A stretch of 64,000 bases of DNA, taken from contig CAWJZV010000015.1 of assembly GCA_963847445.1 (NCBI GenBank), positions 1-64,000 of the forward strand, given 5' to 3'. The notes below the pieces were generated by a model. It had not been told where the DNA came from and ran no database searches. It saw nothing but the letters and a program-made list of their open reading frames with translations. Within the stretch, counting starts at the first letter, position 1. Each line of letters starts with the position of its first letter. This stretch comes from an uncultured delta proteobacterium (GTDB lineage: Bacteria > Desulfobacterota > Binatia > UBA9968). Position numbers and translations under genes: made by a program. This document shows, one piece after another, positions 4,246 to 61,765 of this stretch.

Positions 4246-4270
4246 TGTCAGACTTGCCTTAGTCTACTAA
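4246..4270 (+). repeat. REP-like motif copy (TGTCAGACTTGCCTTAGTCTACTAA)
   Basis: 23/25 identical to 38100-38124; related to 9687-9708. Confidence 0.7.
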
Positions 4271-4357
4271 GTCTTTTGCAGCGCACCGCTTACGTTGAAG
4301 GGATGGCATTTGAGAAAATGGGTGATCTGAGAAGCCAGATAACCGGGATCCAATACT

Positions 4358-4429
4358 GTCGGCAAGCTCAAAGCGGAGAGTTTTTTTGATTCCACGTTCA
4401 TCGACGAGCTGCGCAAGGAAGGGTACTGA
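4358..4429 (+). pseudogene. C-terminal scrap of an NMT1-type substrate-binding protein
   Basis: Translates VGKLKAESFFDSTFIDELRKEGY*, resembling the C-terminus of 35596..36645. Confidence 0.5.
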
Positions 4430-4784
4430 CCGGCCATTTATGGAATTGAATTGAGATGTCCATACGACCGGCGCGGGGAGAAGGACCGAAGTCTTAGATT
4501 GTAATGAGTGTTATGTCTGATCATCCCGCTGGAATTTTCAAGCGGTGATGACTTCATCGTCCCAACTCGACGCTAAGGTGCATTCCAGAAGATTGTAGTG
4601 AGTACTATGTATGACCCGAATCCTCTTTCGGCATCGACCGTGGCAAAAGATTATTGCCGCCAAATCATTGACTCACAGGCAGTGCGATTGATATGGTCGC
4701 GTCGAAGTAAATCTAGAATGCCCGCGTCAGCGCGACTTCTGCTCCTTTGAAATGATTCGTAGCTCCACCCGGCGTGGACAGCCG

Positions 4785-5718
4785 ATGAAGCGGCGCCTCG
4801 GCGTAATCTTCGCAGCCGTCCTTCAGATCGCGATACAAATTATCGGCGCTGCCGATGTTATGGGCGCGGATGATGCTCTCCAGCCGCTGATTACCACCGC
4901 TGAGCTCATCGTTGGGCAAAATCGTTTCGCCTTTGGAATTGCAAAACAGGGCAAGCTCATCGAACGCGCGGAGGTCCTGGTTCGGGTATTCGACCTGCAA
5001 GGAACCGAAGCGCATCTCACAGCCGAAACCAACGCGCCATTTCGGCCAGTGGCGAACCCCGTTGCGGAAAAAAAAGTTCATCGTCACGCCGATGGCAGCC
5101 TTCATGTGCACGACACGGCGACCGAAGTGCAGGGCGTTTACGTGGCCCATCTCAATTTTTCGCGGTCCGGCAAATGGGGCGTTGAGCTCGTGGCACGGCA
5201 GCCGGACGGATCGTCCGAGACGGCGCGGCTGACGGTCATCATCGCGAAACACCCCGACCACGCCGGGGGTCGGCAACCCCGCGCCTCGAAGCCGCAATCT
5301 CATTGCCAGCGACGTCAAAGATCTGCGCCAGATCTCTACCAGCGAGCGTCCCGACCCTCGCCTGCATCAAACGCGAATCGCCGACGCCATTGCGATGGGC
5401 AAGCCGCAGCTCATCGTGTTCGCGACGCCGCAGTTTTGCACCAGCCGCATGTGCGGGCCGGTGGTGGATATCGTGCGCACCTTGCTGGCGACTTACGGTA
5501 AACGGGTGGTTTTCACACATCAGGAGATTTGGCAGGATTTCGCCACCAAGAAAGTTTTTTCGACCATCGAAGAGTGGCGCCTCCAATCTGAGCCGTGGAT
5601 TTTTATCGTCGATGGCCAAGGGTTGATCCGCGCGAGGTTCGAAGGGTTGGTTACCGCGCGAGAGCTCGAAACGGCGGTGCAAAATGTATTGCTGCCGGAG
5701 ACGGAACCGCACCGATAA
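4785..5718 (+). CDS. Exported thioredoxin-like protein (frameshift near 5255)
   Basis: Signal peptide; C-terminal FATPQFCTSRMCGP...EPWIFIVD.QG.I.ARFEG thioredoxin-fold pattern. Confidence 0.7.
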
Positions 5719-5873
5719 GGAATTGATCGATGTCTGTGTCGCTCATTCATTTGGCCAGCACAGCGCCAAGAGGGCCGCCCTGAGGCGAAGCGTAAGTCTT
5801 GTTTGGCTTGTGGTTATGCGAATCACAGGACGGGTACTCAATTCCGCGAAATTTGGGGGGAAAGGAAAGATAC

Positions 5874-6369
5874 ATGAAACGCTTGAGCACCATATCGATG
5901 ATCACTGCGGTATGCACTTTTAGTTTCGCCATCGCCGCGTCCGCGGTACATGCGGCAGACGATAATAAGCTAAGTATTCCAGTCGCTTTTGGCCGAGGAT
6001 TAAATATTGCGTTCGAACCAAGCAGGCAATCAGGTAATGATTCCTGATACTGTCAAACTGAAACAAAACGGCGTCGTGCATTTTCTAGTGGCTGGATTTC
6101 ACGAAATCGTGATCTATAATCCCGGTAAAACACCTGATGATGTCGCAGTTGTCCAAGGCGAAACGTTTATCAACGACTCGAACAACCGCTTCTATCAAGG
6201 AATCATTCCCGCCGGGGGACCCCTCGGCACTCCAGGTACGACCAATCCTTCCAACGCACAAAATCGCGTCGAATCGGTAGCGTTCCTAGAACGTGGGACC
6301 TACCTGGTGATTTGCGACATTCGTACTCATTTCGAAAATGGCATGTTCGGTTACATTGAAGTAAAGTAG
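5874..6369 (+). CDS. Secreted cupredoxin / blue-copper protein (frameshift near 6015)
   Basis: Signal peptide, AGFHEI, and C-terminal GTYLVICDIRTHFENGM (C-x4-H-x4-M). Confidence 0.75.
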
Positions 6370-6571
6370 CGAAAACGCCGAAATCAGCAGAGACGCAGCC
6401 GACGCCGGAGCGCCCGTTCTTTCGGGCTATCCGGCGCGGCTGTGACGCGCTGTCATTTTCAGTCGCGGATGTCCTGTATGAACCATTCGGTCGAATCTCC
6501 CGTCTCAGGCCGGAGCGCTTGGCGAACTCGTAGACTTTGCCCGCCGCTCGCTGTATGTCAGGGGCCGCATT

Positions 6572-6612
6572 TCTTGCATTGCGACAGATGTGTGCGTGCA
6601 AGACCTGGCCCC
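6572..6612 (-). repeat. REP-like imperfect palindrome GGGGCCAGGTCTTGCA...TGTCGCAATGCAAGA
   Basis: Shares TCTTGCA(T/G)TGCGACA and CAGGTCTTGCA with 43164-43186. Confidence 0.65.
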
Positions 6613-6619
6613 AAGATGC

Positions 6620-6803
6620 GGCTCCGAGCGGATGGAGTTTGCCTTTGTCGGACGCACCGTGAACGTGGCCGCGCGCGTGCAGACGCTCACGCGCATCCAT
6701 CAGGCGGACATCCTCGTGACCGAGGCGCAAAGCGCCGAGTTCGACGCGCGCTTCGTGCTCATGCCCATGCCCGCCGAATTCGTAAAAGGGATCGCCGAGC
6801 CCG
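6620..6803 (+). repeat. Partial duplicate of the cyclase 3' region (~3973-4160)
   Basis: Near-identical DNA (GRTVNVAARVQTLTRIHQADILVTEA...VKGIAEP); no start codon context. Confidence 0.92.
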
Positions 6804-6851
6804 AGGGAAATCAGTGTCTACCATCGGAATTTGCAGGTAGCGGGACAGCGC

Positions 6852-7036
6852 AGAATTTCTTGTAAAGAAAGTTCTGACGAGGGTGTGGCTCTTGGGGTCA
6901 GTGGCCTGTTTATTCAGGCTCACACAGCCTGAAATGCCGCCCTCGTCACCTGCATCATCCGAGGGGTCGACCGGGATGGTGCCATATTCTCACCCGAATA
7001 CGTGGCTCTGTAAGTAGACGAGACCGAAGGATGATG
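6852..7036 (+). ncRNA. Putative IS110 bridge RNA
   Basis: 5' hairpin (6852-6875), stem 6875-6889/6936-6948 with internal loop, stem 6953-6960/7029-7036 with internal loop; loop sequences match the flank and the element end. Confidence 0.75.
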
Positions 7037-7732
7037 AAAACGATCTTGTTTCTACCGAAGGAGGAGCTACGTGTCAGAAGAAAAAGCAATCGAGTTACGA
7101 GTCAGTGTGGACGTGGGGAGTCGTCGTCACAGTGTGGCGATGGGATTATCGAGCGGCGAAGTGCTCGAAGAATTTGAGATCGAGCACCGGCCCGAAGGAT
7201 TTGCGGAGTTTTTCTCCCGCATCGAGAAGCATCAGAAGACCAAGAGCTGCGCGGTGGCAGTGGCCATGGAAGGTTACAACGGCTATGCCCGGCCGTTGGA
7301 CAGCATGGTTCGCCAGCACGGCTATCGGCTCTACAATTTGAACAACCTAAAATTTGCCCGGTTCAAGGAGATCTTCCCGGGAGGAGCCAAGAGCGACCGG
7401 ATCGACGCGCGCAAAGGCTTGGAGCTGTTTCAGCTCAGCGATCATCTACCGCTGGCCAAAGAAGTACTGCAGGAAGTAAAGGGTACGCCCCAGGAGAACG
7501 AAATACTCAAGCGACTGACGCCGGCGTCGGCGCCGGTTAGTCAACGAGCGGGTGCGGGTGGTGAACAGTTTACAGGCCGATCTCCAAGCGGTGTGTCCGG
7601 GATTGTTAGAGATCACGGGGGAAGCGAGCAATCAGTGGTTTTTAAACTTCCTGTTAAGTGCGCAGACCCTAGCGCAGCTTTCCCGACTCCGGCACATCAC
7701 GTTGATGAAGATACCGCAGGTGGGGGTGAAGT

Positions 7733-8553
7733 GTGAGGGGAGCCTGATCGGCAGTTTTGGTTGATTGTATTGCCATCTCATATTCCTCTGGGGACCGGTA
7801 GCCCAGAGCCGAATGCAACCGTTTTTTGTTGTACACCTCCTCGATGAAATGGGGAAGCCTTTGAGCTACATCCTCAAAGGTCTCATAGTTCGACAAATGC
7901 ACTTCCTCGTACTTCAACGTCTTGAAGAACGATTCCATGTGAGCGTTGTCGTATGGATTGCCCGTTCTCGACATACTGATCTTCATGTCGGCTTGTTCAA
8001 GCAGCGCCACATACTCACGGCAGGCATACTGCACGCCGCGATCAGAGTGATGAATACACCCAGCCCCAGGGGTGCGGTTGGCCAGGGCCACTTTCAGAGC
8101 TGCCACGCACAGCTCGGCATCGATGCGCTTGGAGATCGCCCAACCGATCACCTTGCGCGAGTAACGGTCCAGTAGGGCTGCCAGATAGACAAACCCCTTT
8201 GAGATCCGGATGTAGGTGATGTCGGCCACCCAGACTTGATTGATTCCGGTTACCGTCAGTTCTGCTAAAAGGTTCGGATAAACCGGGTGGCCATGATTGG
8301 AGTCGGTGGTGGCGATCTTAAAACTCTGCCAGCGGATGGGAAATAGCTGGTATTTTCGCTGGACACGGCGAATCCGTTTGTCGTTGACACAGATCCCCTC
8401 ACGGCGCAGCTGCTTGCCCAGGCGCCGATAGCCGTAACCAGCAAACTCTCCCTGAATCCGTTCGAGATGATCACGCAGTCAGACGTCGCTGCACGACAGC
8501 TCCGATTGGTCGGTGATCGGCTTGTAGTAATAACTGCTGGCTGCCAGCTTCAT
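7733..8553 (-). CDS. IS3 OrfB DDE integrase (in-frame TGA at 8479-8481)
   Basis: [43 protein letters not shown]. Confidence 0.88.
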
Positions 8554-8903
8554 GATTTCGAGCCCTTGGGCAACCGAGCCAAACTCTCCGCGGTGATTAC
8601 GGAGGTACTCACGCTTTTGTGCCGCCGTAGCCAATCCCCGAGTTTTTTTAACTGCGTGTTCTCCAGGTACAGCTCGGCTAGCTTTTCCTTGAGTTCACGA
8701 TTCTCCCGCTCCAGGTTCTTTTCTCGTACCGAGGGCGATCCCTCCAGAGCACCTTGTCGGGCTTGATGGCGCCACCGATCGATCACGCTGCCCGAGATCT
8801 GATACTTGCGGCTGGCGGCGCTGACCGTCAGCAGACCCGATTCCACTTCGCTGACGATCTGCTGCTTGAACCCTGTTTCAAACTTACGTCGCTGTTTTCC
8901 CAT
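8550..8903 (-). CDS. IS3 OrfA HTH protein
   Basis: RRKFETGFKQQIV...W, followed by a coiled coil; ATGA overlap with orfB. Confidence 0.88.
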   Translation of the reverse strand: MGKQRRKFETGFKQQIVSEVESGLLTVSAASRKYQISGSVIDRWRHQARQGALEGSPSVREKNLERENRELKEKLAELYLENTQLKKLGDWLRRHKSVSTSVITAESLARLPKGSKS

Positions 8904-10199
8904 CGACCGACTCCTCCTGGCGGACCATTCTACCCGCCGGTTGAGCCGATCTCACTCCCCTCTAATCCCTACTGTTTCCCTCCAGTCAATGGGGCGCACT
9001 GCGAAGATCGAGGACTGGCAGAAGCGAGCCCACTTCAGTGACGAAGTAGAGTGGGTAGGCGAGATGATCCAAGAGGACGCCCGGCGATGTCTGGAACTCG
9101 ATGAGAAGATTAAGCGGCTACGCAACAAGATTGCAGAGATTGCCAAAGACTCCAAGATCGCCAAGACCTTACGATCGATACCGGGGTTCGGAGCGGTGTG
9201 CACTTCGGAATTGGCTGGCGAGATCGGCACCGTCGAGAGATTTACTTCCGAGGGGAGCCTTGCCTTGTATCTCGGCATGGCAACGTTGGACGACAGTTCG
9301 GGCACGTATCAGGGCACCAAAGCGCCCAAGCAAGTTAACACAAGGGCTAAAGCGGCGATGATGATCGGCCTGGATCGACATCGAAAATACGTTCCAGAGT
9401 CGCAGAGATACTATGAAAAGAAACGAGCAGAGGGAAAGAAACACAACCAGGCGATTCGGGCGCTAGGACGACACCTGTGTCGGATCATTTACCGGATGCT
9501 CAAGGATGAACGTGAGTACGAGGTGCGTCCCGAAAAAGTGAATGCTAAGACCAAGGTCGTTCCGCTAGCGTGCGTTAAAACGCAAATACGGAGGTCGAAA
9601 AGATCAGGCATAGAAACAAAATAACAAAATCTACAAATAGAGCGCGAAAAAACATCATCACCGCTTGAAATTCCCAGCGGGATGTTCAGGCTTGAATAAG
9701 TTAACTTATCTGACGAAGCACAAGATTAATATATTCAAGCCTGACACCTTTGCGCCCACCTTTGCGCCCACAAGCATCACCGCGACGATCAGGATTGATA
9801 AGACAGCAGCTCTCTTCATTGCCCACCTCGTTCGTGAGCAGGCTTATCACGAACATTGCAGTTGCGAAAAGTGTTATTAACGGGAGAAGCGGAACCAGAT
9901 TCGCCGAGGAGGAAAGGCGAAATTCGAGGTTGCATTGAACTGAACGACGCTTCAGTTCAATACAACGCGATTTGCCGGCAGTCGACATAGCGCGGAGCAG
10001 TTAGTCAGCGGTGCGCTAGGTCGCGAACAGGCCGTTCGTCGGTTCTGAGCAGAATCAGCTCTGGCTGAGCTGGAGCCCCCACTCATCAGACGACCGATGA
10101 TGCACTGCTGAAGCGCTCTTCGCAGGACTACTTCTCTCGTTCAAGTTGCGACCATTTTAACGGATAACGCCCATAGAATTTTAGTTAAATAGAGAGTGC

Positions 10200-12642: not shown

Positions 12643-13239
12643 TCATTCCGGACGAGAGCGATCAGACCTATTCATGTACATATGTATGCCAAAATCGTAG
12701 AGATCCCGCAGCGTGAAGCATTCCGAGATCTGATCGTACCGAACCTTTATCAAGTCCGGAGCAGGCGCCCACGAAATTGTGAAGTCCCCGGGTAATTTTC
12801 GGTCCAAATAGTCACCCAAACCACGCAATTCGAGGGACAAATTGCGAAAGTCCGACCGGCTACGCGATATGTTGCGTCTGGATTGGCGCTCCATATCTGC
12901 CGCGAGAATTTCTCGGCTCGTAAAATTTTTATAATGCGGCGTCTCTCTAGGGGAATCCATGCGTCCGAAAATCACTTGGTTAATTTTGTCGAGGACAGTT
13001 CCCTTAGCTGAGGACACTTGTTGTGACGCGCGTTGATTCATCGAAACGCTAAAGTCATCACCCAATTTTGCCAACTCGAAGGCATTGACGCCAAGCGGTT
13101 CCAGGTCCTGACCGATCACTCTAAGAATGCGCGAGTAGGAGAGAAGCACGCCTGCGACATACGCAAGTGCAGGCCGGCCTGTATTAATTGGGCTGATTTC
13201 CCCTTTGCTCAAGTCTGGTAGTTTTTTTGTGACTAACAT
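12643..13239 (-). CDS. Hypothetical protein, paralog of 13908..14405
   Basis: LSYSRILRVIGQDLE ... LSLELRGLGDYLD internal repeat. Confidence 0.65.
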   Translation of the reverse strand: MLVTKKLPDLSKGEISPINTGRPALAYVAGVLLSYSRILRVIGQDLEPLGVNAFELAKLGDDFSVSMNQRASQQVSSAKGTVLDKINQVIFGRMDSPRETPHYKNFTSREILAADMERQSRRNISRSRSDFRNLSLELRGLGDYLDRKLPGDFTISWAPAPDLIKVRYDQISECFTLRDLYDFGIHMYMNRSDRSRPE

Positions 13240-14405: not shown

Positions 14406-14549
14406 CTCCATCGTCCGCTGAGTAAAGATAGTTGCGTTATAAAAGTCCGACCCTGGCTCGGCGTGAAAATTCATCGTCCCCTTGTCCCGCGAGTCCGTGT
14501 TGTGCATCAAAATCGAACTCGCCAGATTCGACCGAGCATCGATCTCGCC

Positions 14550-14727
14550 GACCAGCCCCCATTTGGAATAGCTCCGCGCGGTTCGCGCCGCCACGGTTCG
14601 CTATCACCGGCGCATGTTGAGTCGGCGCGATGTTGTAACGGGGCTTGAACAGCGGAATCTCTTCAAGGTTGAAGCGTTTTTTGAGATCGGAAAATTCAAC
14701 TGGGGTAACTTTGTATCGTCCCCCCAT
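14550..14727 (-). pseudogene. Truncated SOS response-associated peptidase (SRAP/YedK) remnant
   Basis: MGGRY...PRYNIAPTQ...(frameshift)WGLV; the catalytic Cys2 of MCGR is replaced by Gly. Confidence 0.75.
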
Positions 14728-14803
14728 GAAAGCTTCGACAACCTGTCCCGCCTCAATACCTTGCGGCCGCCGAGCCCGAAGACCCGGGGTTTCGATGGCG
14801 GAC

Positions 14804-16285: not shown

Positions 16286-16756
16286 CTATCCCTTGTTGAC
16301 CTTCTGCGCCTCCGCCAACAGTTCCTTGGGATTGCGTTCGCCTGCGGGGGTCACCGAATTCGCATAACGGACGATGCCTTGCTTGTCGATAATGACGGTA
16401 GCGCGATCGGTAATCCCCTTGTCTTCGAGAAACACGCCATACTTTTTAGCCACGTCGCCCTTGGGATGGAAATCCTGCAAGAGCGGGAAAGAAATCCCAC
16501 CGCACGATTTCGCCCAATTGTCGTGAGAGAATCTGCTATCGACGCTCACACCCAGAACTTGGGTGTCACAGGCCTTGAACTCTTCCTTGAGAGCTTCCAG
16601 ACCCGGTATCTCCTTGGTTCAGGTCGGTGTCCAATCGAGCGGATAAAACACTAACATGACGTTTTTTTGGCCTTTGAATTGGTTCAGCGTGAATTTGGTT
16701 CCAGCCAAATGGCTCGCCAGTTCGAAGTCCGGCGCTTGTTTGCCGACCTCAATCAT
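16286..16756 (-). CDS. Selenocysteine-containing peroxiredoxin (AhpC/TSA, AhpE-like)
   Basis: FYPLDWTPT-TGA-TKEIPG in frame with GVSVDS...LLQDFHPKG...RATVIID; UGA at 16619-16621 occupies the peroxidatic Cys position. Confidence 0.88.
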
Positions 16757-16837
16757 GATCTTTCTCCCTCTCAAAAAATTTGAGCCGCCGGTTGGACTAT
16801 AGACCAAGCTGCGCCCACTCTACCCTTAGAAGACCAG

Positions 16838-17134: not shown

Positions 17135-17219
17135 CGTGTATTGATTTGCGCCGGGCTCAAGGTGATTGAACCGGGTGAAGAAGGTCAAGGCTTAATCGGC
17201 CGGGCGTCGGAGTCATTGC

Positions 17220-17762
17220 ATGAAACCGCTGATCAATACATTGCCTGAAACGGTTTTTACCACCAAGGTCGACGATCTGCTCAACTGGGGCCGAGCCTCT
17301 TCGCAATGGTACATGCTGTTCGGTTTGGCCTGCTGCGCCATCGAGCTCATGCAGACCGGCGGGCCGCGCGCTGATCTGGATCGTTTCGGCGCGGTGCCGC
17401 GGGCGACGCCAAGGCAATCGGATCTGATGATCGTAGCCGGCACGCTCACTTATAAGATGGCCAAGCGCACCAAGCTGCTCTATGACCAGATGCCCGATCC
17501 TAAATATGTCATCTCCATGGGCAGTTGCTCGAACTGCGGCGGGCTGTTTCAGCTCGCTTATTCGGTCTGCAAAGGCGTCGACAAGATTATTCCCGTCGAC
17601 GTTTACGTTCCCGGTTGCCCGCCCCGTCCGGAAGCGCTTACCGAAGGGTTGCTGCGAATTCAGGACAAGATGATGCGCGAACGCTGGCTGGTGAAGGCGC
17701 CAGAGAGTGATAGTATCGAAGCGTCGCGTCCAGGCTTTTCAAACGAGGGATCAGTTCGATAA
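17220..17762 (+). CDS. nuoB: NADH-quinone oxidoreductase subunit B
   Basis: [39 protein letters not shown]. Confidence 0.95.
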
Positions 17763-20208: not shown

Positions 20209-20340
20209 TTAAACTTCTTTAACCACGATGACTTCCTCCCCTAGCATGTCGGTGATCTTGATTGCGACCGTGGTCTTGCCGGGAGGAGCGCCCGGTCGTC
20301 CGTCAAAAGCTAAACGTAGACATGACCCATTTGGTCGTTC
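20209..20340 (-). pseudogene. Probable C-terminal remnant of a site-specific DNA methyltransferase
   Basis: PPGKTTVAIKITDMLGEEVIVVKEV resembles C-termini of Mod-type MTases. Confidence 0.45.
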
Positions 20341-22711: not shown

Positions 22712-22872
22712 TTCTGGGGACATAATATTAATTTTCAGGAAGCCCCTTCCATCGAGGCTCCTCGCTTGCCTAAGCTGAGAGGACGTATCGCTGCTGAAGA
22801 TGGGAATTGAGCGTACGCCCCTCTGCGTTACATGATGTGGATAACCAGGCGCCACGATGTCCAGTCTCGCGA
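22712..22872 (-). mobile_element. Internally deleted REP-associated (Y1/RAYT) transposase remnant
   Basis: ARLDIVAPGYPHHVTQRGVRSIPIF is a RAYT N-terminus; ends at AATATTATGTCCCCAGAA. Confidence 0.7.
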
Positions 22873-24579: not shown

Positions 24580-24733
24580 GGCCGAAAAGTCTATGGAGAA
24601 AAAAACTTTCTTTCTGGTTATGGGGTCAGAGAAGTATTTTGCTAGATTGACGAAAGCAAGTTTAAACGCATATCGGCCTAGTGGCTCGATGACTGTTCGA
24701 TCGGGAATCAACGTTCTGTATAAAAAAAGAGGA

Positions 24734-25755: not shown

Positions 25756-26159
25756 GCAGGCAATGAAATCCTCGCTCACATGGGCGGCATTCAATCGATG
25801 GCACAGGAGCTGGGCCCAGCGAGACCCAAGCGGCGAATAGCGCGAAGCGCTTATTCCCGCGATCCTCGGCGGATTCACTGGTATGAATTTAATGGCTCAG
25901 CGCGATGGATCTGGGTCAGAACTTTTATTTCCAGGCTTCTTCTTTAATCCTCATTGAACGACGGACGGCTCAAAGGATACTTAGGCCCCGCAGGTGCACT
26001 CGCGAGTATCCTGCTCGGTGACAAGTTGTTGCTCGCGAGGCTGTTCGGAGCGCGTGGCCGATGTGGGCCGGTAGTCTCGAAAAGTCGACTAATAAGTTTA
26101 ACCGCGACTTGACGGCATTATCCTATTTGCTATCGAGGTGAACGGAGGAGGGCTGATCG

Positions 26160-27394: not shown

Positions 27395-27496
27395 AACTCA
27401 ACCGGCATATGTTCGCTCGACGAGAGCCGGAAGGGTCGCCAGCTTGCGTTCCCGATGGGCGGCGAACGCCAGCCGCGCACGAATGAGCGGGGCGCC

Positions 27497-27770
27497 GGGG
27501 TCAGCCATTTCAATCTGTACAATGCCGAAACTAACGAAGGCCCAAAGCGTCTGGAGAATCATGACCCTGTCCTTCCGCGTTCCCGGAGGCAAGCGTTAGG
27601 CACGCCCACAAGTCTCAAGGTTCGGTACATGGTGAGGAGCCCGCCTCGTTTTCTATCCGTGATGGAATACGGCTTCCACGATCCGCCCATCGCGCTTCGC
27701 CTTCCCGTCGCTCTCTTCCTCGCCCGCAGACCGCGCGATCAAACAAACCAGCTCACGATAGGAAAGGCCC
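27497..27770 (-). mobile_element. Possible RAYT C-terminal remnant ending at a CTGACCCC motif
   Basis: Minus-strand KRDGRIVEAVFHHG resembles a RAYT C-terminal HTH; GGGGTCAG at 27497. Confidence 0.4.
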
Positions 27771-27814
27771 GGGAGATGGCCTCACCTCGGCAGTGTCACC
27801 AAGAATTACCGGGA

Positions 27815-28864: not shown

Positions 28865-29626
28865 TTCAAAGCCCTCCCGGATTTGTGTGTTTTTCGCGGT
28901 GGTTGCCCCTATATCGCCCTCAAAGGTTTCAGTCAATGCGGTCCCGCGAATTTCCAGGTCGACTCTGTGTAGGGGCGAACCTGGAGCAAGAAGCCGAGAG
29001 AAGCCGAGGGTCAGGTCTATTTTCAAAGTACAAGGAGGAATCGGGGTTTCGTTTCTCAACAATTTCGTAGGGCGTTCGCTCCTCTTGGACTTTTTTGTTT
29101 TCGTTCGTTCATCCCGCACAGGCAGCTTTGAATTCCTCCATAACTTCTTGCTCGCGAGCACCGCGCCCTAAGTCGATTCAAAAGCAAAATTAAAGATGTG
29201 ATGGAGCCCGGATTTGACGGACACCATACAAGGGCTTAAAAGTTCGGGAGAGGTGTTCGATAGGAAAGCGGAAGCAAATTAGCGCTGAGTCTAAACACTA
29301 AGCCGTGCGGCAAAATTGAAAATTTATCGGTTGGGTCGAAATCGGAGGGGCGAAAATGGAAGAAGGTGTGACAATTGCGAAGGTGCCGGATTGGATGGAG
29401 CTCAAGCCCGAGATGATGGGGCATCTGATCAGGGAGCACGAGAAACTTGGGCGCACCCTGACCGAACAAGAGACGGTCACGTTGCTACGCAGCTTGGGAT
29501 TCGAAATCAGTGAAGGGAAGTGATGCGGTCGTTTCCGTTGAAAGGCGCTGCTGCTGCACTAGAACTAGAACGCAAACCCCGGGGGGTTGCCCCGGCGCTT
29601 TCAATTGCGCGTAACCGATTTGAAGG

Positions 29627-31902: not shown

Positions 31903-32012
31903 ATGACAACCCTGACAATGAACGACGAGGAACGACTCGATGCAATCCAACGAGTGTATCGCAGCGAGCTGAAGCTGCGCTGGTGATCGGAGAGTGAATG
32001 GCAATGTTATCG
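31903..32012 (+). pseudogene. N-terminal scrap of an ISNCY-like transposase
   Basis: MTTLTMNDEERLDAIQRV...SE.QCYR, cut at GGGTCAG. Confidence 0.5.
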
Positions 32013-32102
32013 GGTCAGATCACGGGTCGGTAGCCCGAGGCCGACCGTTTCAAATTCGGCTGTGCCATTGAACGCGGGTCAAAGCCTACTGCAAGCGGGC
32101 GA

Positions 32103-32876: not shown

Positions 32877-33017
32877 CGGATGTATAGAAATTTAAAAAAC
32901 CTTTTCCGACAATGATATACCCCCGCATCGCCGAGCGCGTCAAATCGAACAGAATGAATATAATAGAAGAGTGTCACGGCCAAAGTGCAGCCAACCGGGT
33001 CAGACCCCAATCCCGCT

Positions 33018-33148
33018 TCGCGTCAGACCGTGAACGTCCGATGCGTAATGTTGGCGAGAGGGGTTCGAGCGCCATCGGTTTTGGAAGCAGTCCTTGCTCG
33101 TGCATGTAGCGCGCGAATGTCTCGAGCGTGCGCCGATTGGCTCTCGAG
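33018..33148 (-). repeat. Diverged duplicate of the 3' end of 36913..37896
   Basis: Aligns by eye with 36908-37038, including the stop codon; adjacent to GGGTCAGACCCC. Confidence 0.85.
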
Positions 33149-33260
33149 GACAAAGTCCCCTTTTAGGCATTCAGAAATCCGCTTTGCTCGATCTCTCTGA
33201 CAAATTGCAAGTCCTCCAAACATTTCGTGTCGCAATCGCGTGTCTGGTGGGGCGGCTACA

Positions 33261-34637
33261 TCAACGGTAGCCGAACACAGGCGGAAAAACGACGACCACA
33301 AACGCCGCCCACATGGAGTACACCGGCAGGTAGGCGATCTGCCATCGCTCCAGGGCGGCAAACGAGCCGCTACCAAGTAGGAAGCGGGCATAGAGCCACG
33401 CCGACCACGTCAGATTGATCAGCAAGATGAAATTCTCACCGAGCGCCGCCACTCGGTTCGGAGTGAAACCGAACTCGGAGATTCGTGCCGCGATTGCCGC
33501 TAGCGCCAGCGCATCGACCACCAGGGCGCTTACCACCAGCAGTAGCTGCAAGCCGTCGAAGAAATCGGGCGGTCTTTGCGGGTCGCGCGCCGAGGCTGCG
33601 TAGAGCACCAAGCCGACGACGCATACCAACAGCAGGTCGAACGCGATCAGCACTTCCCGCTTTACGTCGATGGGGCTACCCGTCCACGCCATTGTCGCCA
33701 GAAACGCCAGCAGCACGACGGTGAACAGGGGCGTGAATAGCCGCGTCAGCACCGGCGCCATGTTCTCGATGACGCTCTGCTTCGCCTCCACCAGCCAGGA
33801 TCCGACGATAACCGCCCCCATCGCTCCGCACGGTATCAACCAGCCCGCAACCAGCCACTCGGCGTCAATCTCGATGGCGTTGAACATTAACATCGTGAAG
33901 CCGGCGACAACGCCGCCGCCGAGCGCGATGAGCACGTAGTAGATGAACAACTCGCCGGAGAAGCGCACGAAATTCATGCGCCCGCCGCCGGCGAACCAGC
34001 GGCCGCCGACGTAGGCAATGCCGATGACCAGCCACAGGGCGATCGGCAGATGCAGCGCGGTTAGCACCTCGGTATCGCTGGCCGTGCCGAAGTGGAAGAG
34101 ATTCGCGAAGACAGCCGCGGCCGCGAAGGGCAGCGCCAGCCAGACGCAGGTCACGACGGCGAGCCCGCGCTTCCAGGCGAAGTAGGCCGCGAGCTGCGGC
34201 AGCACGAACAGGCTGGCATTGCGGGCGTAGAACGGCTGCAGTTCACCGCCGCCAAGCTGAAGACCGAAAAGCGCCGGCACCTTGATGGCCACGGCCGCGG
34301 CGACGGCAAGGCTCAGGACGACGAGCATTTCGGCGCGCGTGCCCGTCCCCGACTCACCGGCAGCTTCGGGAGCGATGACCAGCTGCTTCCATAGCCGCTC
34401 CGAGTGCTCGCGCGCGAATTCGCGGGACAGCGCATCGAGGCTGCCGATGCGTTTGACGGCGATGAGGAAGGCTTCCTCCGCCGCCAAACCTGCCTCGGTG
34501 AGCACCGCCATCTGGTCGCGCAGGTGGCCCTCCAGTTCCTCCACGTCCGGGCCATGGATCGCCCGCCGGCGGCTCAGATAGAGTCGCCATTGCGCGATCT
34601 GCTCTTCGAGCGGCGAGCGGTCGGCGGGTGCAGTCAT
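33261..34637 (-). CDS. Permease-prefix-domain membrane protein
   Basis: ELEGHLRD...GL..EEAF..AV.R.G N-terminal domain plus about 10 TM helices. Confidence 0.85.
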   Translation of the reverse strand: MTAPADRSPLEEQIAQWRLYLSRRRAIHGPDVEELEGHLRDQMAVLTEAGLAAEEAFLIAVKRIGSLDALSREFAREHSERLWKQLVIAPEAAGESGTGTRAEMLVVLSLAVAAAVAIKVPALFGLQLGGGELQPFYARNASLFVLPQLAAYFAWKRGLAVVTCVWLALPFAAAAVFANLFHFGTASDTEVLTALHLPIALWLVIGIAYVGGRWFAGGGRMNFVRFSGELFIYYVLIALGGGVVAGFTMLMFNAIEIDAEWLVAGWLIPCGAMGAVIVGSWLVEAKQSVIENMAPVLTRLFTPLFTVVLLAFLATMAWTGSPIDVKREVLIAFDLLLVCVVGLVLYAASARDPQRPPDFFDGLQLLLVVSALVVDALALAAIAARISEFGFTPNRVAALGENFILLINLTWSAWLYARFLLGSGSFAALERWQIAYLPVYSMWAAFVVVVFPPVFGYR

Positions 34638-36645: not shown

Positions 36646-36912
36646 CGGTGTATGAGCCCGATTACTCCAATACCAAAGAAAAGTCTACGCCCGCCCCCGA
36701 CTTGAACTCCCGGGCGGTGCTTCCGGCCACCAGCACCTCCAGGCGCCGTGTGGTCGAATCTTTAGCTTTGCGGTTTCGCAGAACCAGCGGGGACGGCGCG
36801 GCCGGCTCATCTGGGGCAACAACGAATCGCATCTCAGCGCCTTTGACTTCCGTAGCCGTAAGGTGGAAAGGGACTCTAGAAAAGCCGAAAGCGGCCGCCA
36901 CGGCTGCTCGCG

Positions 36913-38040: not shown

Positions 38041-38099
38041 CGGTTGATCGTTTCGTTAGGCGAGCACGCTACTTCCCCGGCTCAGCATGTTCTGTCAGG

Positions 38100-38124
38100 T
38101 GTCAGACTTGCCTAAGTTTACTAA
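38100..38124 (+). repeat. REP-like motif copy
   Basis: 23/25 identical to 4246-4270. Confidence 0.7.
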
Positions 38125-38305
38125 CGCTTGATGGGAAAAGATGATGCCGCGCCATCAGCGAGTCGTGCCGAAGGACTGCTCTATCAACGTGATGCCCCGT
38201 GGCAATGACGGGCAGAAGTAAGAGTCGGTCAAGCTGTCACTTAACTAACTGTCCGTGAATCCTGGGTTAGCTCAATTCGACCCCGTTCTCCGCCCTGCGC
38301 GAGGA

Positions 38306-42946: not shown

Positions 42947-43163
42947 GGTTGGTCTCCCTGAACGGCTATTTGTGCGCGCGCACTATCTCACGCCTGAACG
43001 CGCAAGCATCGCTGAGAGCTGCTGATATCAATTCTGGAGTTGCTCTGTCAACCGACGAAGGGTCATTTTACTTACATGATTCTACTGATCTGATACGGTT
43101 GAGTCTGAGAGCGAGCGGGTGAGGATCGGGCGAGAAAAGTCAGGTTCAGCAGGGGTAAGCGTT

Positions 43164-43186
43164 GTGTCAGGTCTTGCAGTGCGACA
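43164..43186 (+). repeat. REP-like motif copy GTGTCAGGTCTTGCAGTGCGACA
   Basis: Matches 6572-6612. Confidence 0.6.
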
Positions 43187-43777: not shown

Positions 43778-43861
43778 TCCATCCTCCTGTTCTGTTCCCA
43801 ACTACCTTCGCTGGTTGTGCATCGAACGAGGAATGCCATCGCGCCACAGACAGTTATGGAA

Positions 43862-58799: not shown

Positions 58800-58918
58800 A
58801 GCTACGCATCGGAGATTGCCCCGCACAGGACTCGGAGGTTTTGCTGCTAATTTTTCTCTGCGTGGCTCTGCGTCCCTGCGCTGAATAATCCGAACTAACT
58901 ATCTCCTCAGGATGTTTC

Positions 58919-60349
58919 TTGGCAAAAGATAGTCGCTCGCTACTCGGTCAAAGTTCAGTCGCGATCGCATGCCTGAGCGCACTATTGGGTTCCCTCGATA
59001 GCGCCATCAATATCGGCTTTCCAGCGATTACCGCGGCGTTTTCTCTCGAAGTCACGGCGATCCAATGGGTCATCGTCGGCTATGTGTTGACTCACGCGAG
59101 CTTGCTGCCTGGCTGCGGCGGGCTGGCGGATATCTGGGGTCATGGGCGGGTACTTATCTGCGGCTTGCTTGTCAGCGCCCTTGGTTTCACCGCCTGCGGT
59201 TTAGCGACCAACTATGCTTGGCTCGTCGGCGGACGGATAGGACAGGGCATGGGCGCGGCGCTGGTTTTCGCCACCGCTCCCGCGCTTGTGACCTTGGCGG
59301 TCCCCGCTGAAAACCGCGGCCGTGCTCTCGGCATTTACCAGATGAGCAACGCCGTGGGCTATGCCATCGGTCCGTTGATCGGTGGTATCCTCATCGACAA
59401 CTTGGGTTGGCGGGCGACTTTCATGTTCAGGGTCGCACCCGCTCTGGTGCTCGCCGGCTTCGCGGCCGTAAAGCTGCCGGTGCGACGCGAGCGCAGAGCC
59501 GGCCAAGGCTTCAATTTTTTTGGCGTGTTGTCTTTAGCAGCGAGCCTCGCCGGTTGCTTGCTCACTCTAAGCCAGGGCCGCGCCTTGGGCTGGTCATCGC
59601 CTCGAGTCTCCATTCTCGCTGCCGCTTCGATCGCAAGTTTTGCCGGCTTCATCGTCGTCAAAGCTCGTGCGAAATCGCCGATGGTCGATCTGACGGTAAT
59701 TCGGCTGGCACCATTTATTATCGCTAATGTTCTCTCCGTTATGGCCAATTGCGCGCGATTCGCCATTGGCTTGCTCCTGCCGTTCTACGTGATCAATGTG
59801 TTGAAGTATCCGGCCACCACCGGCGGCACACTGATGCTGGCTACTTATTTACCGACGATCGTAGCTGCACCACTGGCGGGGAAATTGTCCGAGCGCATCG
59901 GCACTGCGCGACTAAGTTCGTTGGGGCTGGCTGTGCAAGGGCTCGGTCTCTGCATGCTCAGCCGTTTGAATGGGCAAACCGATTATCTATCCCTAGCCTT
60001 TACCCTTGGCGTCGTCGGCTTGGGCCTGGGCATATTCGAAGCGCCGAACATGAGCTTTATCATGGGCTCGATCCCGCGTACCCAACAAGGCGTCGCCGGC
60101 GGCATCGCCAACATGATGCGGCCCATTGGCATCGTCTTCGGCGCCGCCGGCTGGAGTCTGCTCTTCGACCAACGCCAGCAATCCTATGCGCCAGCATCTG
60201 CCGTCGCATCGTCGGTGGCCGCCAGCGGCATGTTAGCGGCGCTGCAGGATGTTTTCCTCAGTGCCGCCGGACTCTGTTTTGTCGCCTGTGTCTTGTCACT
60301 GTTCCGCAAAGGGGAAGCCAGTGAATCGAATGTCCATGCAGTGAGCTGA
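58919..60349 (+). CDS. MFS transporter (DHA2-like)
   Basis: About 14 TM helices, G.LAD..G, R..QG.G, GPLIGG..I...GWR. Confidence 0.9.
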   Translation: MAKDSRSLLGQSSVAIACLSALLGSLDSAINIGFPAITAAFSLEVTAIQWVIVGYVLTHASLLPGCGGLADIWGHGRVLICGLLVSALGFTACGLATNYAWLVGGRIGQGMGAALVFATAPALVTLAVPAENRGRALGIYQMSNAVGYAIGPLIGGILIDNLGWRATFMFRVAPALVLAGFAAVKLPVRRERRAGQGFNFFGVLSLAASLAGCLLTLSQGRALGWSSPRVSILAAASIASFAGFIVVKARAKSPMVDLTVIRLAPFIIANVLSVMANCARFAIGLLLPFYVINVLKYPATTGGTLMLATYLPTIVAAPLAGKLSERIGTARLSSLGLAVQGLGLCMLSRLNGQTDYLSLAFTLGVVGLGLGIFEAPNMSFIMGSIPRTQQGVAGGIANMMRPIGIVFGAAGWSLLFDQRQQSYAPASAVASSVAASGMLAALQDVFLSAAGLCFVACVLSLFRKGEASESNVHAVS

Positions 60350-60893
60350 AGCGAAGAAAAGCAAAGCGCCGTCGAACCCGATCAGGGCTTCAGTCATGTG
60401 AAACATTTCTGAGAGATTCAAGTTAAAGCGCAGGCTACCGATTTATTCATCACGAAAGCCGATATAGCCTAAATTTAGGAACCGACGATGAATTCAGCTT
60501 GCTGCTCAAACGCCACCAGGGCAGAGCCACGGCACGGACGCCACAGCGACGGACAAACACGACAACTTAGTTGAGCCACTCCAAACAGACTTTTCGCAGG
60601 GTCAAATGGGGGAGCCGTTGTCTGAGGTGCCGAGCAGTTCGGGTTGTAAGGGTTTCTGACAAAACGTCACGTCCGATTTGCCCATTGCCGTGATCCGATG
60701 GCCGAGCGGTTGTTTAAAACCGCTAAGATTGCGCGATTCATTACCGGGTCTCAGCGCCTTATTCCCCGTTAGGTAAATTCAATTCTCTCATTCGTTCCAG
60801 GCGTTATCTCACTTTTTTAGGACTCCACCGTAGGACTTGGCAGTTTTTAGACCAACAGTGACGTGGTCTTGGGCTTGCTCTATCAGGGTTCCC

Positions 60894-61559
60894 ATGAGCA
60901 CTCACGAAAAGAAAACTGAAGCCGCAGTTGCCCCAGAAAGCAGTCTCGATACCGAAGGCCTGTTGCTGCAACGGCTAAACAACACGACCACTGAAGCAGA
61001 ATACTTTCGTTGGATGCTTTTCGTCGTGGGTTTTTACCGCGGTATCGATAAGATCAGCGAGGCGATCAAACTGCTCGAAGCTTATATCAACTCCAATCGC
61101 AACGCCGAAAATAAGGCGCATTGCCATTTGGCCTTGGGACAAATCGCGACGGATGAAAAACGCTTTGCCGCCGCGCTCGAGCATTTCGATGCGGCGCTGG
61201 CGCTGCGGCCGGAGAAGTCTAAGGTCAAATATGTGTTGCACAACAACATCGCTTTTTGTCTCAACCAACTGAACCGCCATGTCGAGGCGGAAAAATATTG
61301 CCGCGCAGCCATCGACCTCGACTGGACGCGGGCCAGCGCGTTTCGCAATCTCGGCATCAGTCTTAAGGGCCAAGGCAACTTGATCGGTGCGGCGTGGGTG
61401 CTGGTAGAGGCGATCAATGCCGACCCCGGCGATACCCGGGCGCGCCAGATCGTCGAGCAAGTGGTTAAGGCCGATCCTAGTCTGAGCGTGCAATGTCCGT
61501 GGCTCAACGGGGCGCTCGACGGCGACAACAAGTCAGTGGTGGACTCGCCGTTGATGTAG
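60894..61559 (+). CDS. TPR-repeat protein
   Basis: HLALGQ, HNNIAFCL, FRNLGISL repeats. Confidence 0.85.
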   Translation: MSTHEKKTEAAVAPESSLDTEGLLLQRLNNTTTEAEYFRWMLFVVGFYRGIDKISEAIKLLEAYINSNRNAENKAHCHLALGQIATDEKRFAAALEHFDAALALRPEKSKVKYVLHNNIAFCLNQLNRHVEAEKYCRAAIDLDWTRASAFRNLGISLKGQGNLIGAAWVLVEAINADPGDTRARQIVEQVVKADPSLSVQCPWLNGALDGDNKSVVDSPLM

Positions 61560-61742
61560 CGTGACCTCATGAGTGCGATAGTGGCGGCAGTTTGCGGACA
61601 ATTACTCACCGCGAAACTGTCCGGCGGCCGTACCAGAGTTTATCGAAGAGCGGATGCGTCGAGGATCAGCCGGTTCTTGGGCTGGTATCAGAGCATCGAG
61701 ATAAGCTAACGGAGGAAAAGCTGGCCCGCGTACTGGCTAAAT

Positions 61743-61765
61743 AATCAACACTCATGCCTGACCCG
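61743..61765 (-). repeat. REP-like motif copy CGGGTCAGGCATGAGTGTTGATT
   Basis: Matches the GGGGTCAGGCTTG core. Confidence 0.5.

What the first reader, a model, noticed from the sequence alone, without database searches (positions are those of the whole stretch)
4246..61765. Dispersed GGGTCAG(A/G)-type motif marks junctions with gene scraps and RAYT remnants
Seen: related copies at about 4246, 6572-6612(-), 9687, 14441(-), 25912, 27497, 29008, 32011, 32997, 38100, 43164 and 61743(-), all outside the called genes. Several lie beside truncated genes: SBP C-terminus (4358), cyclase duplicate (6620), SRAP N-terminus (14550), DUF937-like scrap (~25780-25880), ISNCY N-terminus cut at the motif (32011), decarboxylase duplicate (33018) and acyl-CoA ligase C-terminus (61803). 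RAYT remnants lie at 22712-22872 and possibly 27497-27770. Inference: these are cleavage/joining sites of an HUH (Y1) transposase that captures and shuffles DNA, acting as a distributed gene-acquisition system. Several copies are short and degenerate.
Basis: partly seen in the sequence, partly recalled or inferred. Interest (0 to 1): 0.72.

Follow-up and report, generated by a model that had tools for sequence, protein, structure and literature searches.

The report
Relic ends of tyrosine-transposase units
The scattered GGGTCAG motif is the conserved tip of the inverted repeats that flank a known kind of bacterial tyrosine-transposase gene, and this stretch of genome is a graveyard of such units rather than a gene-capturing system.

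Summary
The motif is real but loosely drawn. Exact GGGTCAGR occurs 8 times in the window against about 2.6 expected. With one mismatch allowed it is at background: 93 against 77.

It is the conserved head of the terminal inverted repeats (TIRs) that bracket about 300-aa Y1 HUH transposase genes. These are the published TIRtron/TIRYT units, whose TIR consensus is GGGGWSAS (PMC3733652, PMC6006769). A relaxed head, G[GT]GTCA[AG], lies 28-76 nt upstream in 16 of 19 such genes of this genome and its relatives.

One site (32011) is chance and four are head-only.

The window is the densest TIR cluster in the genome. It is also the richest bin for gene scraps.

Across 866 scrap edges genome-wide, the motif is no nearer than at random positions in the same non-coding segments.

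Verdict: new members of a known kind, in a decaying, fast-rearranging region.

Two side observations may be new:
- Tandem duplications that include the head occur at transposase-unit ends.
- An IS110-family element's right end is joined to truncated TIR heads.

The parts
4246..4272 (-). Terminal inverted repeat (3' TIR, L020 type); on the + strand it reads TGTCAGACTTGCCTTAGTCTACTAAG
   Evidence: 3 mismatches in 22 to the TIR of the relative's intact unit L020, with 0.0 such hits expected per 64 kb. TGTCAGACTTGCC occurs only twice in the genome, both times in the window.
4273..4359 (-). C-terminal remnant of a TIRYT transposase gene (aa 255-283 of 287)
   Evidence: tblastn with the L020 protein: 65.5% identity, E=5e-7. 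It ends where the SBP scrap 4358-4451 begins.
4496..4552 (-). L013/L014-type TIR with a truncated head (4496-4521), joined to a relic of the IS110 right end (4522-4552)
   Evidence: 5 mismatches in 22, 0.019 expected. The same IS110 end sequence as at 9661-9684.
4598..4619 (-). L014-type TIR copy (GGGTCATACATAGTACTCAC)
   Evidence: 5 mismatches in 22, 0.019 expected; sequence shown.
6554..6614 (-). TIR dimer forming a hairpin (L002 type, cognate to the intact transposase on contig C7)
   Evidence: nhmmer E=6.9e-7. The DNA fold has z=-3.07, and 0 of 200 shuffles fold as well.
6625..6806 (+). Duplicate of the 3' part of the cyclase gene (3981-4162)
   Evidence: 95% identity over 182 nt. The duplicate is also present in relatives G004 and G003.
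6813..9684 (+). IS110-family element, interrupted at 7736-8998 by an IS3-family element
   Evidence: Pfam DEDD_Tnp_IS110, Transposase_20, rve and HTH_Tnp_1. An uninterrupted copy lies on G004:C4. Ends are shown.
9685..9747 (.). L011-type TIR dimer (hairpin); its left head is truncated by the IS110 right end
   Evidence: 3 mismatches in 20 to the L011 TIR, 0.0 expected. Fold z=-5.46, 0 of 200 shuffles. Junction shown.
14434..14455 (-). Weak head-like copy (GGGTCGGACTTTTATAACGC), uncertain
   Evidence: 6 mismatches in 22 to the L001 TIR, 0.25 expected. It lies 7 nt from a scrap edge at 14460.
20309..20330 (-).
   Evidence: 3 mismatches in 22, 0.009 expected.
22781..22864 (-). Possible TIRYT N-terminal remnant, weak
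   Evidence: Top hit of my transposase HMM on the window's six frames but E=0.46. tblastn E=1.4. No Pfam or NCBIfam hit.
24621..24652 (+). TIR head (TGGGGTCAGAG..., L026-like) lying exactly at a synteny boundary
   Evidence: Homology with G004:C5 starts at the first base of the head, and the left flanks are unrelated. The library match is weak: 6 mismatches, 0.45 expected.
25913..25940 (+). Head-only copy resembling C3:3998, uncertain
   Evidence: Gapped alignment score 15 to C3:3998. No transposase remnant beside it.
27496..27517 (+). Head GGGGTCAGCCAT (L026/L014-like), uncertain; the adjoining 27551-27639(-) is an SBP scrap, not RAYT
29008..29030 (+). Head preceded by a 10-nt tandem duplication, uncertain
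   Evidence: TRF array at 28989-29008. Weak match to the TIR library.
32012..32019 (+). Chance copy inside an IS-like element's coding end
   Evidence: Other copies read GGGTCAAAG at this place and stay aligned past it.
32991..33264 (+). Insert specific to this genome: a head-like GGGTCAGACCCC plus two abutting 3'-end scraps of nearby SBP genes
   Evidence: It replaces 58 nt of G004. 33018-33148 matches 36908-37038, and 33148-33240 matches 35593-35685.
36748..36769 (+). L021-like TIR copy, moderately supported
   Evidence: 5 mismatches in 22, 0.028 expected.
38097..38125 (+). 5' TIR (L020 type)
   Evidence: 3 mismatches in 22, 0.0 expected.
38144..38218 (+). N-terminal remnant of a TIRYT gene (aa 1-25)
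   Evidence: tblastn with L020: 56% identity, E=0.002. The same relic lies at the orthologous site in G004, G007 and G022.
43162..43183 (+). Solo TIR (L002 type)
   Evidence: nhmmer E=5.6e-7. 5 mismatches in 22, 0.093 expected. It does not form a stable hairpin.
61653..61741 (+). C-terminal remnant of a TIRYT gene (aa 281-310 of 310, L016/L017 type)
   Evidence: tblastn E=0.007 in two pieces. A homologous relic lies at C7:175300-175479.
61742..61766 (-). 3' TIR (L016 type); head GGGTCAGG on the - strand
   Evidence: 3 mismatches in 22, 0.019 expected.

Best explanation
GGGTCAG(A/G) is the conserved outer head (published consensus GGGGWSAS) of the terminal inverted repeats that bracket TIRYT genes. 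These encode Y1 HUH transposases of about 300 aa with a C-terminal helix-turn-helix, and gene plus repeats form a 'TIRtron'. In this genus a unit reads: 5' TIR (head plus 15-22 type-specific bases), about 35-45 nt, the gene, then the inverted 3' TIR right after the stop codon.

The window holds no intact unit. It holds relics of at least five TIR sequence types:
- two ends with adjoining C-terminal gene remnants (4246-4359, 61653-61766);
- one end with an N-terminal remnant (38097-38218);
- two TIR dimers that fold as hairpins (6554-6614, 9685-9747);
- solo TIRs (43162, 20309, 4496, 4598, and probably 24621 and 36748).

The relics have accumulated, together with IS110 and IS3 elements, a 125-bp miniature repeat and many dead gene fragments, in a gene-poor stretch at about 4-33 kb. 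That stretch has lower G+C and rearranges quickly.

Shown here: the gene-TIR association, the remnants, the clustering, and the lack of enrichment at scrap edges.

Inferred: the transposase binds the type-specific part of the TIR and cuts single-stranded DNA at or beside the conserved head. Homology often ends at a head simply because the head is the end of a once-mobile unit.
For: Both intact genes of this genome are bracketed by inverted head-bearing repeats.

Among 19 TIRYT loci (2 own, 17 from relatives; G005 not used):
- GGGTCAGR lies within 120 nt upstream on the gene strand in 8 of 19, and G[GT]GTCA[AG] in 16 of 19. Background in the same loci is 0.6% and 1.5%.
- Clear TIR pairs appear in 7 of 19 by automatic alignment; an eighth, L002, was seen by eye. 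The 3' TIR starts 1-2 nt after the stop in 6 of these 7 (13 nt in L013).

Window TIR copies match specific relatives' TIRs at 3-5 mismatches in 20-22. The ten listed hits (each expected <=0.1) have a summed expectation of about 0.26.

Transposase remnants adjoin three TIRs (E=5e-7, 0.002, 0.007).

Protein family: the C2 protein passes NCBIfam 'REP-associated tyrosine transposase' (88.3 bits, cut-off 80). It also has PF01797 and a weak Bac_DnaA_C match. The C7 protein has PF01797 plus HTH_23. Both show the HUH and Tyr motifs in the sequences printed.

Literature, read as passages:
- PMC3733652 defines TIRtrons/TIRYTs and the GGGGWSAS motif, and notes single, dimeric and clustered TIR copies.
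- PMC6006769 equates TIRYT with its subclass 2.1, which carries Bac_DnaA_C or HTH_23.

Clustering: the window holds 10 of 124 genome-wide TIR-library hits and is the top 64-kb bin. C7:128-192 kb, where an intact gene lies, has 8. All other bins have 3 or fewer.

Of the 8 exact motif copies, three are explained as chance: 28628 and 37131 lie inside genes, and 32012 lies inside an IS. That matches the roughly 2.5 expected.
Against: - About half of the genome-wide TIR-library hits at <=5 mismatches are noise: the reversed-pattern control gave 67 raw hits against 132.
- 43162 does not fold as a hairpin.
- Gene calls behind the 'intergenic' statistics are my own crude ORF model.
- No intact TIRYT gene lies in the window.
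- The C7 protein is below the NCBIfam cut-off: 64.8 bits against 80.
- Nobody has shown biochemically that a TIRYT cuts its TIR; only two works in the searched library use the term.
Confidence: 0.8

Rival explanations
1. One reading: the heads are cleavage and joining sites at which the Y1 transposase picks up flanking host DNA and pastes it elsewhere, one-ended and in a rolling-circle-like way. This would generate the gene scraps and act as a distributed gene-acquisition system.
For: - The window is the top bin both for scraps (10) and for heads and TIRs.
- Two differences from relative G004 start within 6 nt of a head: 24617-24620, and the 274-nt scrap-bearing insert at 32991.
- 6 of 19 TIRYT loci carry a tandem duplication that abuts or includes the head, against 36 of 8830 control positions.
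- The cyclase 3' fragment next to the 4246 TIR is duplicated once in this genome and in G004, and twice in G003.
- GTCAGR lies within 25 nt of 12 of 125 strong intergenic tandem arrays, against 1.9% of controls.
Against: - Genome-wide there is no enrichment at 866 scrap edges: 4 against 2.5 +/- 1.5 within 20 nt (47 of 200 random sets reach 4), and 6 against 5.8 within 50 nt.
- Segments holding scraps are not richer in the motif (P=0.2).
- Scraps are short dead fragments of housekeeping-type genes, not acquired functional genes.
- Several abutting scrap junctions (14550/14551, 33148) carry no head.
- Both relics and scraps survive only in dispensable DNA, which alone explains why they occur together.
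Confidence: 0.1
2. The motif is a chance pattern: a short G+C-rich word that a reader picked out of non-coding DNA after the fact.
For: - With one mismatch the count is background: 93 against 77, with 4 of 100 shuffles reaching 93.
- GTCAGR(N)CTT is not over-represented genome-wide: 137 copies against about 200 by base composition, my arithmetic.
- The motif is not among the genome's top k-mers.
- At least 3 of the 8 exact copies are chance.
Against: - The exact motif occurs 8 times against 2.6 expected.
- Window copies match 20-22 nt of specific TIRs from other genomes.
- Transposase remnants adjoin three copies.
- The head lies upstream of 16 of 19 TIRYT genes.
Confidence: 0.05
3. The copies are chiefly regulatory: solo 5' TIRs carry the transposase promoter (a TTGAC-like -35 lies about 20-25 nt inside the head) and are kept because they drive or terminate neighbouring genes.
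For: - TTGACA-like hexamers follow the head in L001, L014, L015, L019, L029 and L030.
- The 38.1-kb relic is conserved at about 86-91% identity in G004, G007 and G022.
Against: - Orientation relative to neighbouring genes is inconsistent. For example, the 38.1-kb relic lies downstream of a convergent gene.
- Dimers and 3' TIRs lack the promoter part.
- No expression data were examined.
Confidence: 0.05

Closest known systems
TIRtrons / TIRYT (Di Nocera et al. 2013, PMC3733652; subclass 2.1 TnpA_REP of Quentin et al. 2018, PMC6006769)
   Same: - A Y1 HUH gene with a C-terminal Bac_DnaA_C or HTH_23 domain.
- Flanking terminal inverted repeats with a GGGGWSAS head at a similar distance from the gene.
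- Low to moderate numbers of single and dimeric TIR copies.
- Several different units per genome.
   Different: - Here most copies are relics in one dense cluster.
- At least five TIR types lie side by side with no intact gene in the window.
- Tandem duplications that include the head, and IS110 ends joined to truncated heads, are not mentioned in the passages I read.
REPtrons: RAYT genes with REP/REPIN populations (Bertels and Rainey 2011, PMC3116915 and PMC3337134, abstracts only)
   Same: - A single-copy-like Y1 transposase flanked by inverted short repeats.
- Hairpin-forming dimers dispersed in intergenic DNA.
- The C2 protein passes the NCBIfam 'REP-associated tyrosine transposase' model.
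   Different: - No GTAG or CGTC tag.
- Copy numbers are about 10-20 per type, not hundreds.
- The repeats are TIR-like, not 20-40-nt palindromes.
- There are several paralogous genes and many dead copies per genome.
IS200/IS605 family (TnpA Y1; IS608, ISDra2)
   Same: The same catalytic fold family (PF01797) and single-strand chemistry. A short conserved sequence next to the element end may play the part of the IS608 target and cleavage tetranucleotide; this is my inference.
   Different: IS200/IS605 have subterminal hairpins and no TIRs, and their transposase is about 130-150 aa without the HTH tail. The weak NF033573 match is far below its cut-off.
IS91 / ISCR / Helitron-type rolling-circle elements that transduce flanking DNA (recalled, not looked up)
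   Different: Those enzymes belong to other HUH families. No such gene or end was found here, and the genome-wide junction test was negative.
IS110/IS1111 elements that insert into REPs or transposon TIRs (ISPpu9 in REPs, abstract of PMC12288879; seekRNA and bridge RNA papers PMC11187229 and PMC11208160, abstracts only)
   Same: The IS110-family element here has its right end joined to repeat heads in 3 of 3 cases seen. That fits sequence-specific, RNA-guided targeting of a dispersed repeat.
   Different: The apparent target is a TIRtron TIR head of three different TIR types. The left flanks do not carry the missing part of the head. No bridge RNA was modelled.

Membership tests
TIRtron / TIRYT | Y1 HUH transposase domain (PF01797) with HUH and catalytic Tyr | tested here: met
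   Genome copies C2 (E=4.6e-17) and C7 (E=6.2e-11). HVH/HYH and the Y of RYIxLNP are visible. The window holds only remnants; no PF01797 hit in the window at E<=0.01.
TIRtron / TIRYT | C-terminal helix-turn-helix (Bac_DnaA_C, HTH_23 or HTH_28) | tested here: met
   C7 has HTH_23 at E=9.4e-8. C2 has Bac_DnaA_C only weakly, at E=0.024. The window remnants at 4273-4359 and 61653-61741 are pieces of this tail.
TIRtron / TIRYT | Gene flanked by terminal inverted repeats | tested here: met
   Clear pairs in 7 of 19 loci by alignment, plus C7 (L002) by eye. The other 11 show at most a head on one side.
TIRtron / TIRYT | GGGGWSAS motif at the outer end of the TIR | tested here: met
   Strict GGGGWSAS upstream in 6 of 19 loci. 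GGGTCAGR in 8 of 19 and G[GT]GTCA[AG] in 16 of 19. The consensus is taken from passages of PMC3733652 and PMC6006769.
TIRtron / TIRYT | The transposase binds and cleaves its TIR | not testable with these tools
   No biochemical data were found. Only two works in the library use the term.
REPtron (RAYT + REP/REPIN) | Flanking repeats are GTAG- or CGTC-tagged short palindromes | tested here: not met
   Heads read GGGGTCAG or GTGTCAG, with no GTAG tag.
REPtron (RAYT + REP/REPIN) | Abundant dispersed population (tens to hundreds) of the flanking repeat | tested here: not met
   About 12-18 copies of the best family. 124 library hits for 17 TIR patterns, about half of them noise.
IS200/IS605 | Short TnpA (about 130-150 aa), subterminal hairpins, no TIRs | tested here: not met
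   Proteins are 275-307 aa. NF033573 scores 24.5 and 13.6 bits against a cut-off of 55. TIRs are present.
   4 of 866 edges against 2.5 +/- 1.5 expected within 20 nt; 6 against 5.8 within 50 nt; P=0.2 at segment level. Single cases exist.

The most novel reading that the evidence does not exclude
The conserved 8-nt head may not be part of the mobile unit. It may instead be its cleavage and target word, as TTAC is for IS608. TIRYT action at that word would then repeatedly duplicate the head together with adjacent host DNA. That would explain three things:
- tandem [flank+head] duplications at 6 of 19 transposase units, against 0.4% of control positions;
- heads at the ends of short tandem arrays;
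- local re-copying of neighbouring gene ends, as with the cyclase 3' fragment.

It would make these enzymes a source of the thousands of short tandem arrays and some of the scrap mosaics in this lineage. A second layer would be an RNA-guided IS110 element that homes to the same head.
Probability: 0.12. Interest if true: 0.6.

Novelty: new member of a known kind. Interest (0 to 1): 0.35.

Why it matters
TIRtrons have been described only by sequence comparison, in two works in the searched library. Nothing is known of how, or whether, their transposases move DNA.

This window shows what their decay looks like in an uncultured lineage: many TIR types, split genes, dimers and solo ends packed into one fast-changing region.

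It also gives three concrete handles for experiments:
- matched TIR and gene pairs from relatives;
- a head that sits exactly at a synteny boundary;
- head-including tandem duplications.

For annotation, it warns that short 'GGGTCAG' words alone are not diagnostic. Only copies that share the 15-22 type-specific bases are.

Tried and rejected
- K-mer census of the genome: the motif is not among the abundant words. The top ones are short tandem repeats and a CGTCATTCCCGCG-type palindrome (one search timed out).
- Rfam and tRNA scans of the window found nothing.
- A repeat search around the two intact genes with default seeds did not report the imperfect TIRs. They were found by eye and by local alignment.
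- The idea that the motif is a general promoter or operator was dropped. GTCAGR(N)CTT is not enriched, and its position relative to the -35 varies.
- A strict search for head-including tandem duplication in this genome found only 2 of 133 inter-ORF GGGTCAG copies, so the feature is tied to real unit ends, not to the word.
- A single inversion of 4360-38218 would rejoin the two L020-type halves, but codons 26-254 are missing. The same split, on opposite strands, already exists in G004. It stays a conjecture.
- A Tn3-family TIR reading of GGGGTCTGAC at 32997 was considered from memory and dropped: nothing matches beyond 10 nt.
- The earlier-findings look-up returned two unrelated notes.
- One verbose script output was redone with a filter.

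Full report
**1. What is at the coordinates**

The window is contig C15:1-64000 of a 7.19-Mb, 48-contig genome with 57.5% G+C.

Exact GGGTCAGR occurs 8 times. Shuffles give 2.62 +/- 1.56, and 0 of 100 reach 8. Genome-wide there are 274 copies, 76 of them outside my crude ORF calls. At that rate about 2.4 are expected per 64 kb. The first 40 kb of the window is the richest 40-kb bin of the genome, with 7 copies against 6 in the next bin.

At one mismatch the word is at background: 93 against 77.3 +/- 8.5, with 4 of 100 shuffles reaching 93. It is not among the genome's abundant k-mers. So there is a small real excess of about five copies, buried in a loosely drawn family.

**2. What the motif is**

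I listed all 76 inter-ORF copies. Both intact PF01797 genes of the genome have the word 45 and 64 nt upstream of their start codons, and an inverted copy just after the stop.

I then took PF01797 loci from relatives. Matches occurred in 16 of 21 genomes including this one.

In 19 loci with genes of about 240-380 aa (2 own, 17 from relatives):
- GGGTCAGR lies within 120 nt upstream on the gene strand in 8.
- G[GT]GTCA[AG] does so in 16, mostly at -44 to -64.
- Background in the same loci is 0.6% and 1.5% per 120 nt.

Local alignment found clear inverted-repeat pairs in 7 of 19 loci, and the C7 pair (L002) was seen by eye. The 5' repeat lies at -65 to -33. The 3' repeat begins 1-2 nt after the stop in 6 of the 7 aligned pairs (13 nt in L013). 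The repeats share only the head; the next 15-22 bases differ between units.

The proteins carry PF01797 plus a C-terminal helix-turn-helix. C7 has HTH_23, and C2 has a weak Bac_DnaA_C match. The C2 protein passes NCBIfam 'REP-associated tyrosine transposase' (88.3 bits, cut-off 80). The C7 protein does not (64.8 bits).

**3. This is a described kind**

Passages of PMC3733652 define RAYT-like genes flanked by TIRs as TIRYTs, and the units as TIRtrons. They state that many such TIRs share GGGGWSAS at a similar distance from the gene. They also report moderately abundant single, dimeric and clustered TIR copies in some genomes.

Passages of PMC6006769 equate TIRYT with TnpA_REP subclass 2.1, which carries Bac_DnaA_C, HTH_23 or HTH_28. 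They give the consensus GGGG[AT][CG]A[CG].

GGGGTCAG fits both. Only these two works in the searched library use the term.

**4. The window copies, one by one**

I scanned the window with 22-nt TIR patterns taken from the relatives, and calibrated the scan on the rest of the genome. I also used nhmmer with a hairpin model, tblastn with relatives' transposases and DNA folds.

Well supported:
- 4246-4272: L020-type 3' TIR. It follows a C-terminal gene remnant at 4359-4273(-), E=5e-7.
- 38097-38125: the matching 5' TIR. It is followed by an N-terminal remnant at 38144-38218, E=0.002.
- 61742-61766: L016-type 3' TIR. It follows a C-terminal remnant at 61653-61741, E=0.007.
- 6554-6614: TIR dimer hairpin, z=-3.07.
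- 9685-9747: TIR dimer hairpin, z=-5.46.
- 43162-43183: solo TIR.

- 20309-20330(-), 4496-4521(-), 4598-4619(-) and 36748-36769.
- A TIR-like hit at 2900 that starts a 55-nt repeat.

Sites sharing only the head or a weak match:
- 24621. Its head lies exactly where homology with relative G004 begins, and the left flanks are unrelated.
- 27496, 29008, 25913, 14434 and 32997.

Chance copies:
- 32012. Other copies of that IS-like element read GGGTCAAAG there and stay aligned beyond it.
- 28628 and 37131, which lie inside genes.

Three chance copies out of eight matches the expected background.

27497-27770 is wrong: 27551-27639(-) is a 93%-identical scrap of an SBP gene.

**5. Clustering**

With the TIR library at up to 5 mismatches the genome gives 124 collapsed hits. 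A reversed-pattern control gave 67 raw hits against 132, so about half are noise.

The window holds 10 and is the top 64-kb bin. C7:128-192 kb, which holds an intact gene, three remnants and several hairpins, holds 8. No other bin exceeds 3.

The genome also holds at least seven further transposase fragments. One lies just past the window end at 64103-64422.

**6. The scraps and the junction claim**

The region at about 4-33 kb has lower G+C and many split or truncated genes. It is the top bin for low-copy gene scraps in my genome-wide screen: 10 of 433.

The 'decarboxylase' parent is an NMT1-like SBP.

GGGTCAGR lies within 20 nt of 4 of 866 scrap edges. Random positions in the same non-coding segments give 2.5 +/- 1.5, and 47 of 200 random sets reach 4. 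Within 50 nt it is 6 against 5.8. Shorter versions of the word behave alike. Segments with scraps are not significantly richer in the motif: 0.060 against 0.049 per kb, P=0.2.

So the motif is not a general marker of scrap junctions.

Single cases do exist:
- the boundary at 24617-24620;
- the 274-nt insert at 32991-33264, which starts 6 nt before a head-like word and carries two abutting SBP 3' ends;
- edges within 0-14 nt of the TIRs at 61758, 14460 and 6625.

For true TIRs this is expected, because a TIR is the end of a unit.

**7. Comparison with relatives**

G004:C5 is collinear with window 4564-6806, 24621-32990 and 33265-43800. The stretch 9.7-24.6 kb matches only scattered pieces elsewhere.

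The split L020-type unit, the cyclase duplicate and the 6.6-kb hairpin are shared with G004. The 38.1-kb relic is also shared with G007 and G022. Much of the relic set therefore predates these genomes' divergence.

**8. Mechanism**

Shown: the association of head-bearing TIRs with TIRYT genes, the relics, their clustering, and the absence of junction enrichment.

Inferred, by analogy with the IS200/IS605 and REP-RAYT systems named in PMC6006769: the enzyme recognises the type-specific part of its TIR as single-stranded DNA and cuts at or beside the conserved head.

**9. Side observations that may be new**

- 6 of 19 TIRYT loci carry a tandem duplication (period 12-23, at least 85% identity) that abuts or includes the head. 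The same test is positive at 36 of 8830 control positions in the same loci.
- In this genome GTCAGR lies within 25 nt of 12 of 125 strong intergenic tandem arrays, against 1.9% of controls. Only 2 of 133 inter-ORF GGGTCAG copies show the strict pattern.
- The right end of the IS110-family element is joined to truncated heads of three different TIR types: at window 9684/9685, at the relic 4522/4521(-), and in G004:C4. This suggests it targets TIR heads, as other IS110 members target REPs (abstract of PMC12288879).

**10. Verdict**

The transposase link is supported and already in print as the TIRtron head. The capture-and-shuffle mechanism is not supported. The window holds new members of a known kind. 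It is of modest interest, with two small leads worth a follow-up.

Noticed in passing
window 37925-38048: A 125-bp element with three internal hairpins has about 50 copies in this genome at 92-99% identity. Relatives hold many copies at 80-97%. G007 lacks it at the orthologous site. It looks like a miniature mobile element and has no Rfam match.
   Followed up: partly
window 9661-9685; window 4521-4552(-); L048 (G004:C4 about 13080-13200): The right end of the IS110-family element (hairpin CCGCTTGAAA..AGCGG followed by GATG) is joined to truncated TIR heads, (T/A)TCAG(G/A)C, of three different TIR types. This suggests the element targets TIRtron heads.
   Followed up: partly
loci L014, L016, L017, L027, L029, L001: Tandem duplications of 12-23 nt abut or include the TIR head at transposase-unit ends: 6 of 19 loci against 0.4% of control positions.
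   Followed up: partly
whole genome (G000): TRF lists about 2,500 short tandem arrays after merging overlaps (2,770 raw), mostly of period 7-9. They supply the genome's most frequent 12-16-mers. Their origin is unexplained.
   Followed up: partly
window 4246-4359(-) and 38097-38218(+): The two halves of one L020-type unit lie on opposite strands 34 kb apart. Its head-bearing 13-mer (TGTCAGACTTGCC) occurs only at these two places in the genome. An inversion of 4360-38218 would rejoin them, though codons 26-254 are missing. G004 has the same split.
   Followed up: partly
window 14460-14728 and 33018-33240: Scraps from different parent genes abut to the base. A TctC-like internal piece joins an SRAP N-terminus at 14550/14551. 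Two SBP 3' ends join at 33148, each ending 3-5 nt past its parent's stop codon. No head lies at either joint.
   Followed up: partly
window 16286-16807 and 17140-17762: A split AhpC-like gene copy and a near-full duplicate of a NuoB-like gene (97% protein identity to the C45 copy) lie in the decaying region.
   Followed up: no
window 2905-2960: A roughly 55-nt stretch recurs in G004, G022, G007 and G003, once beside G004's transposase relic. A TIR-like hit starts at 2900.
   Followed up: no
C15:64103-64422, just beyond the window: A further TIRYT gene fragment (aa 22-129) lies about 100 nt past the window end.
   Followed up: no
L051 (G003:C2:6000-10000): The cyclase 3' region is present three times within 3.7 kb in G003. 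Only the last copy runs into the TIR.
   Followed up: partly
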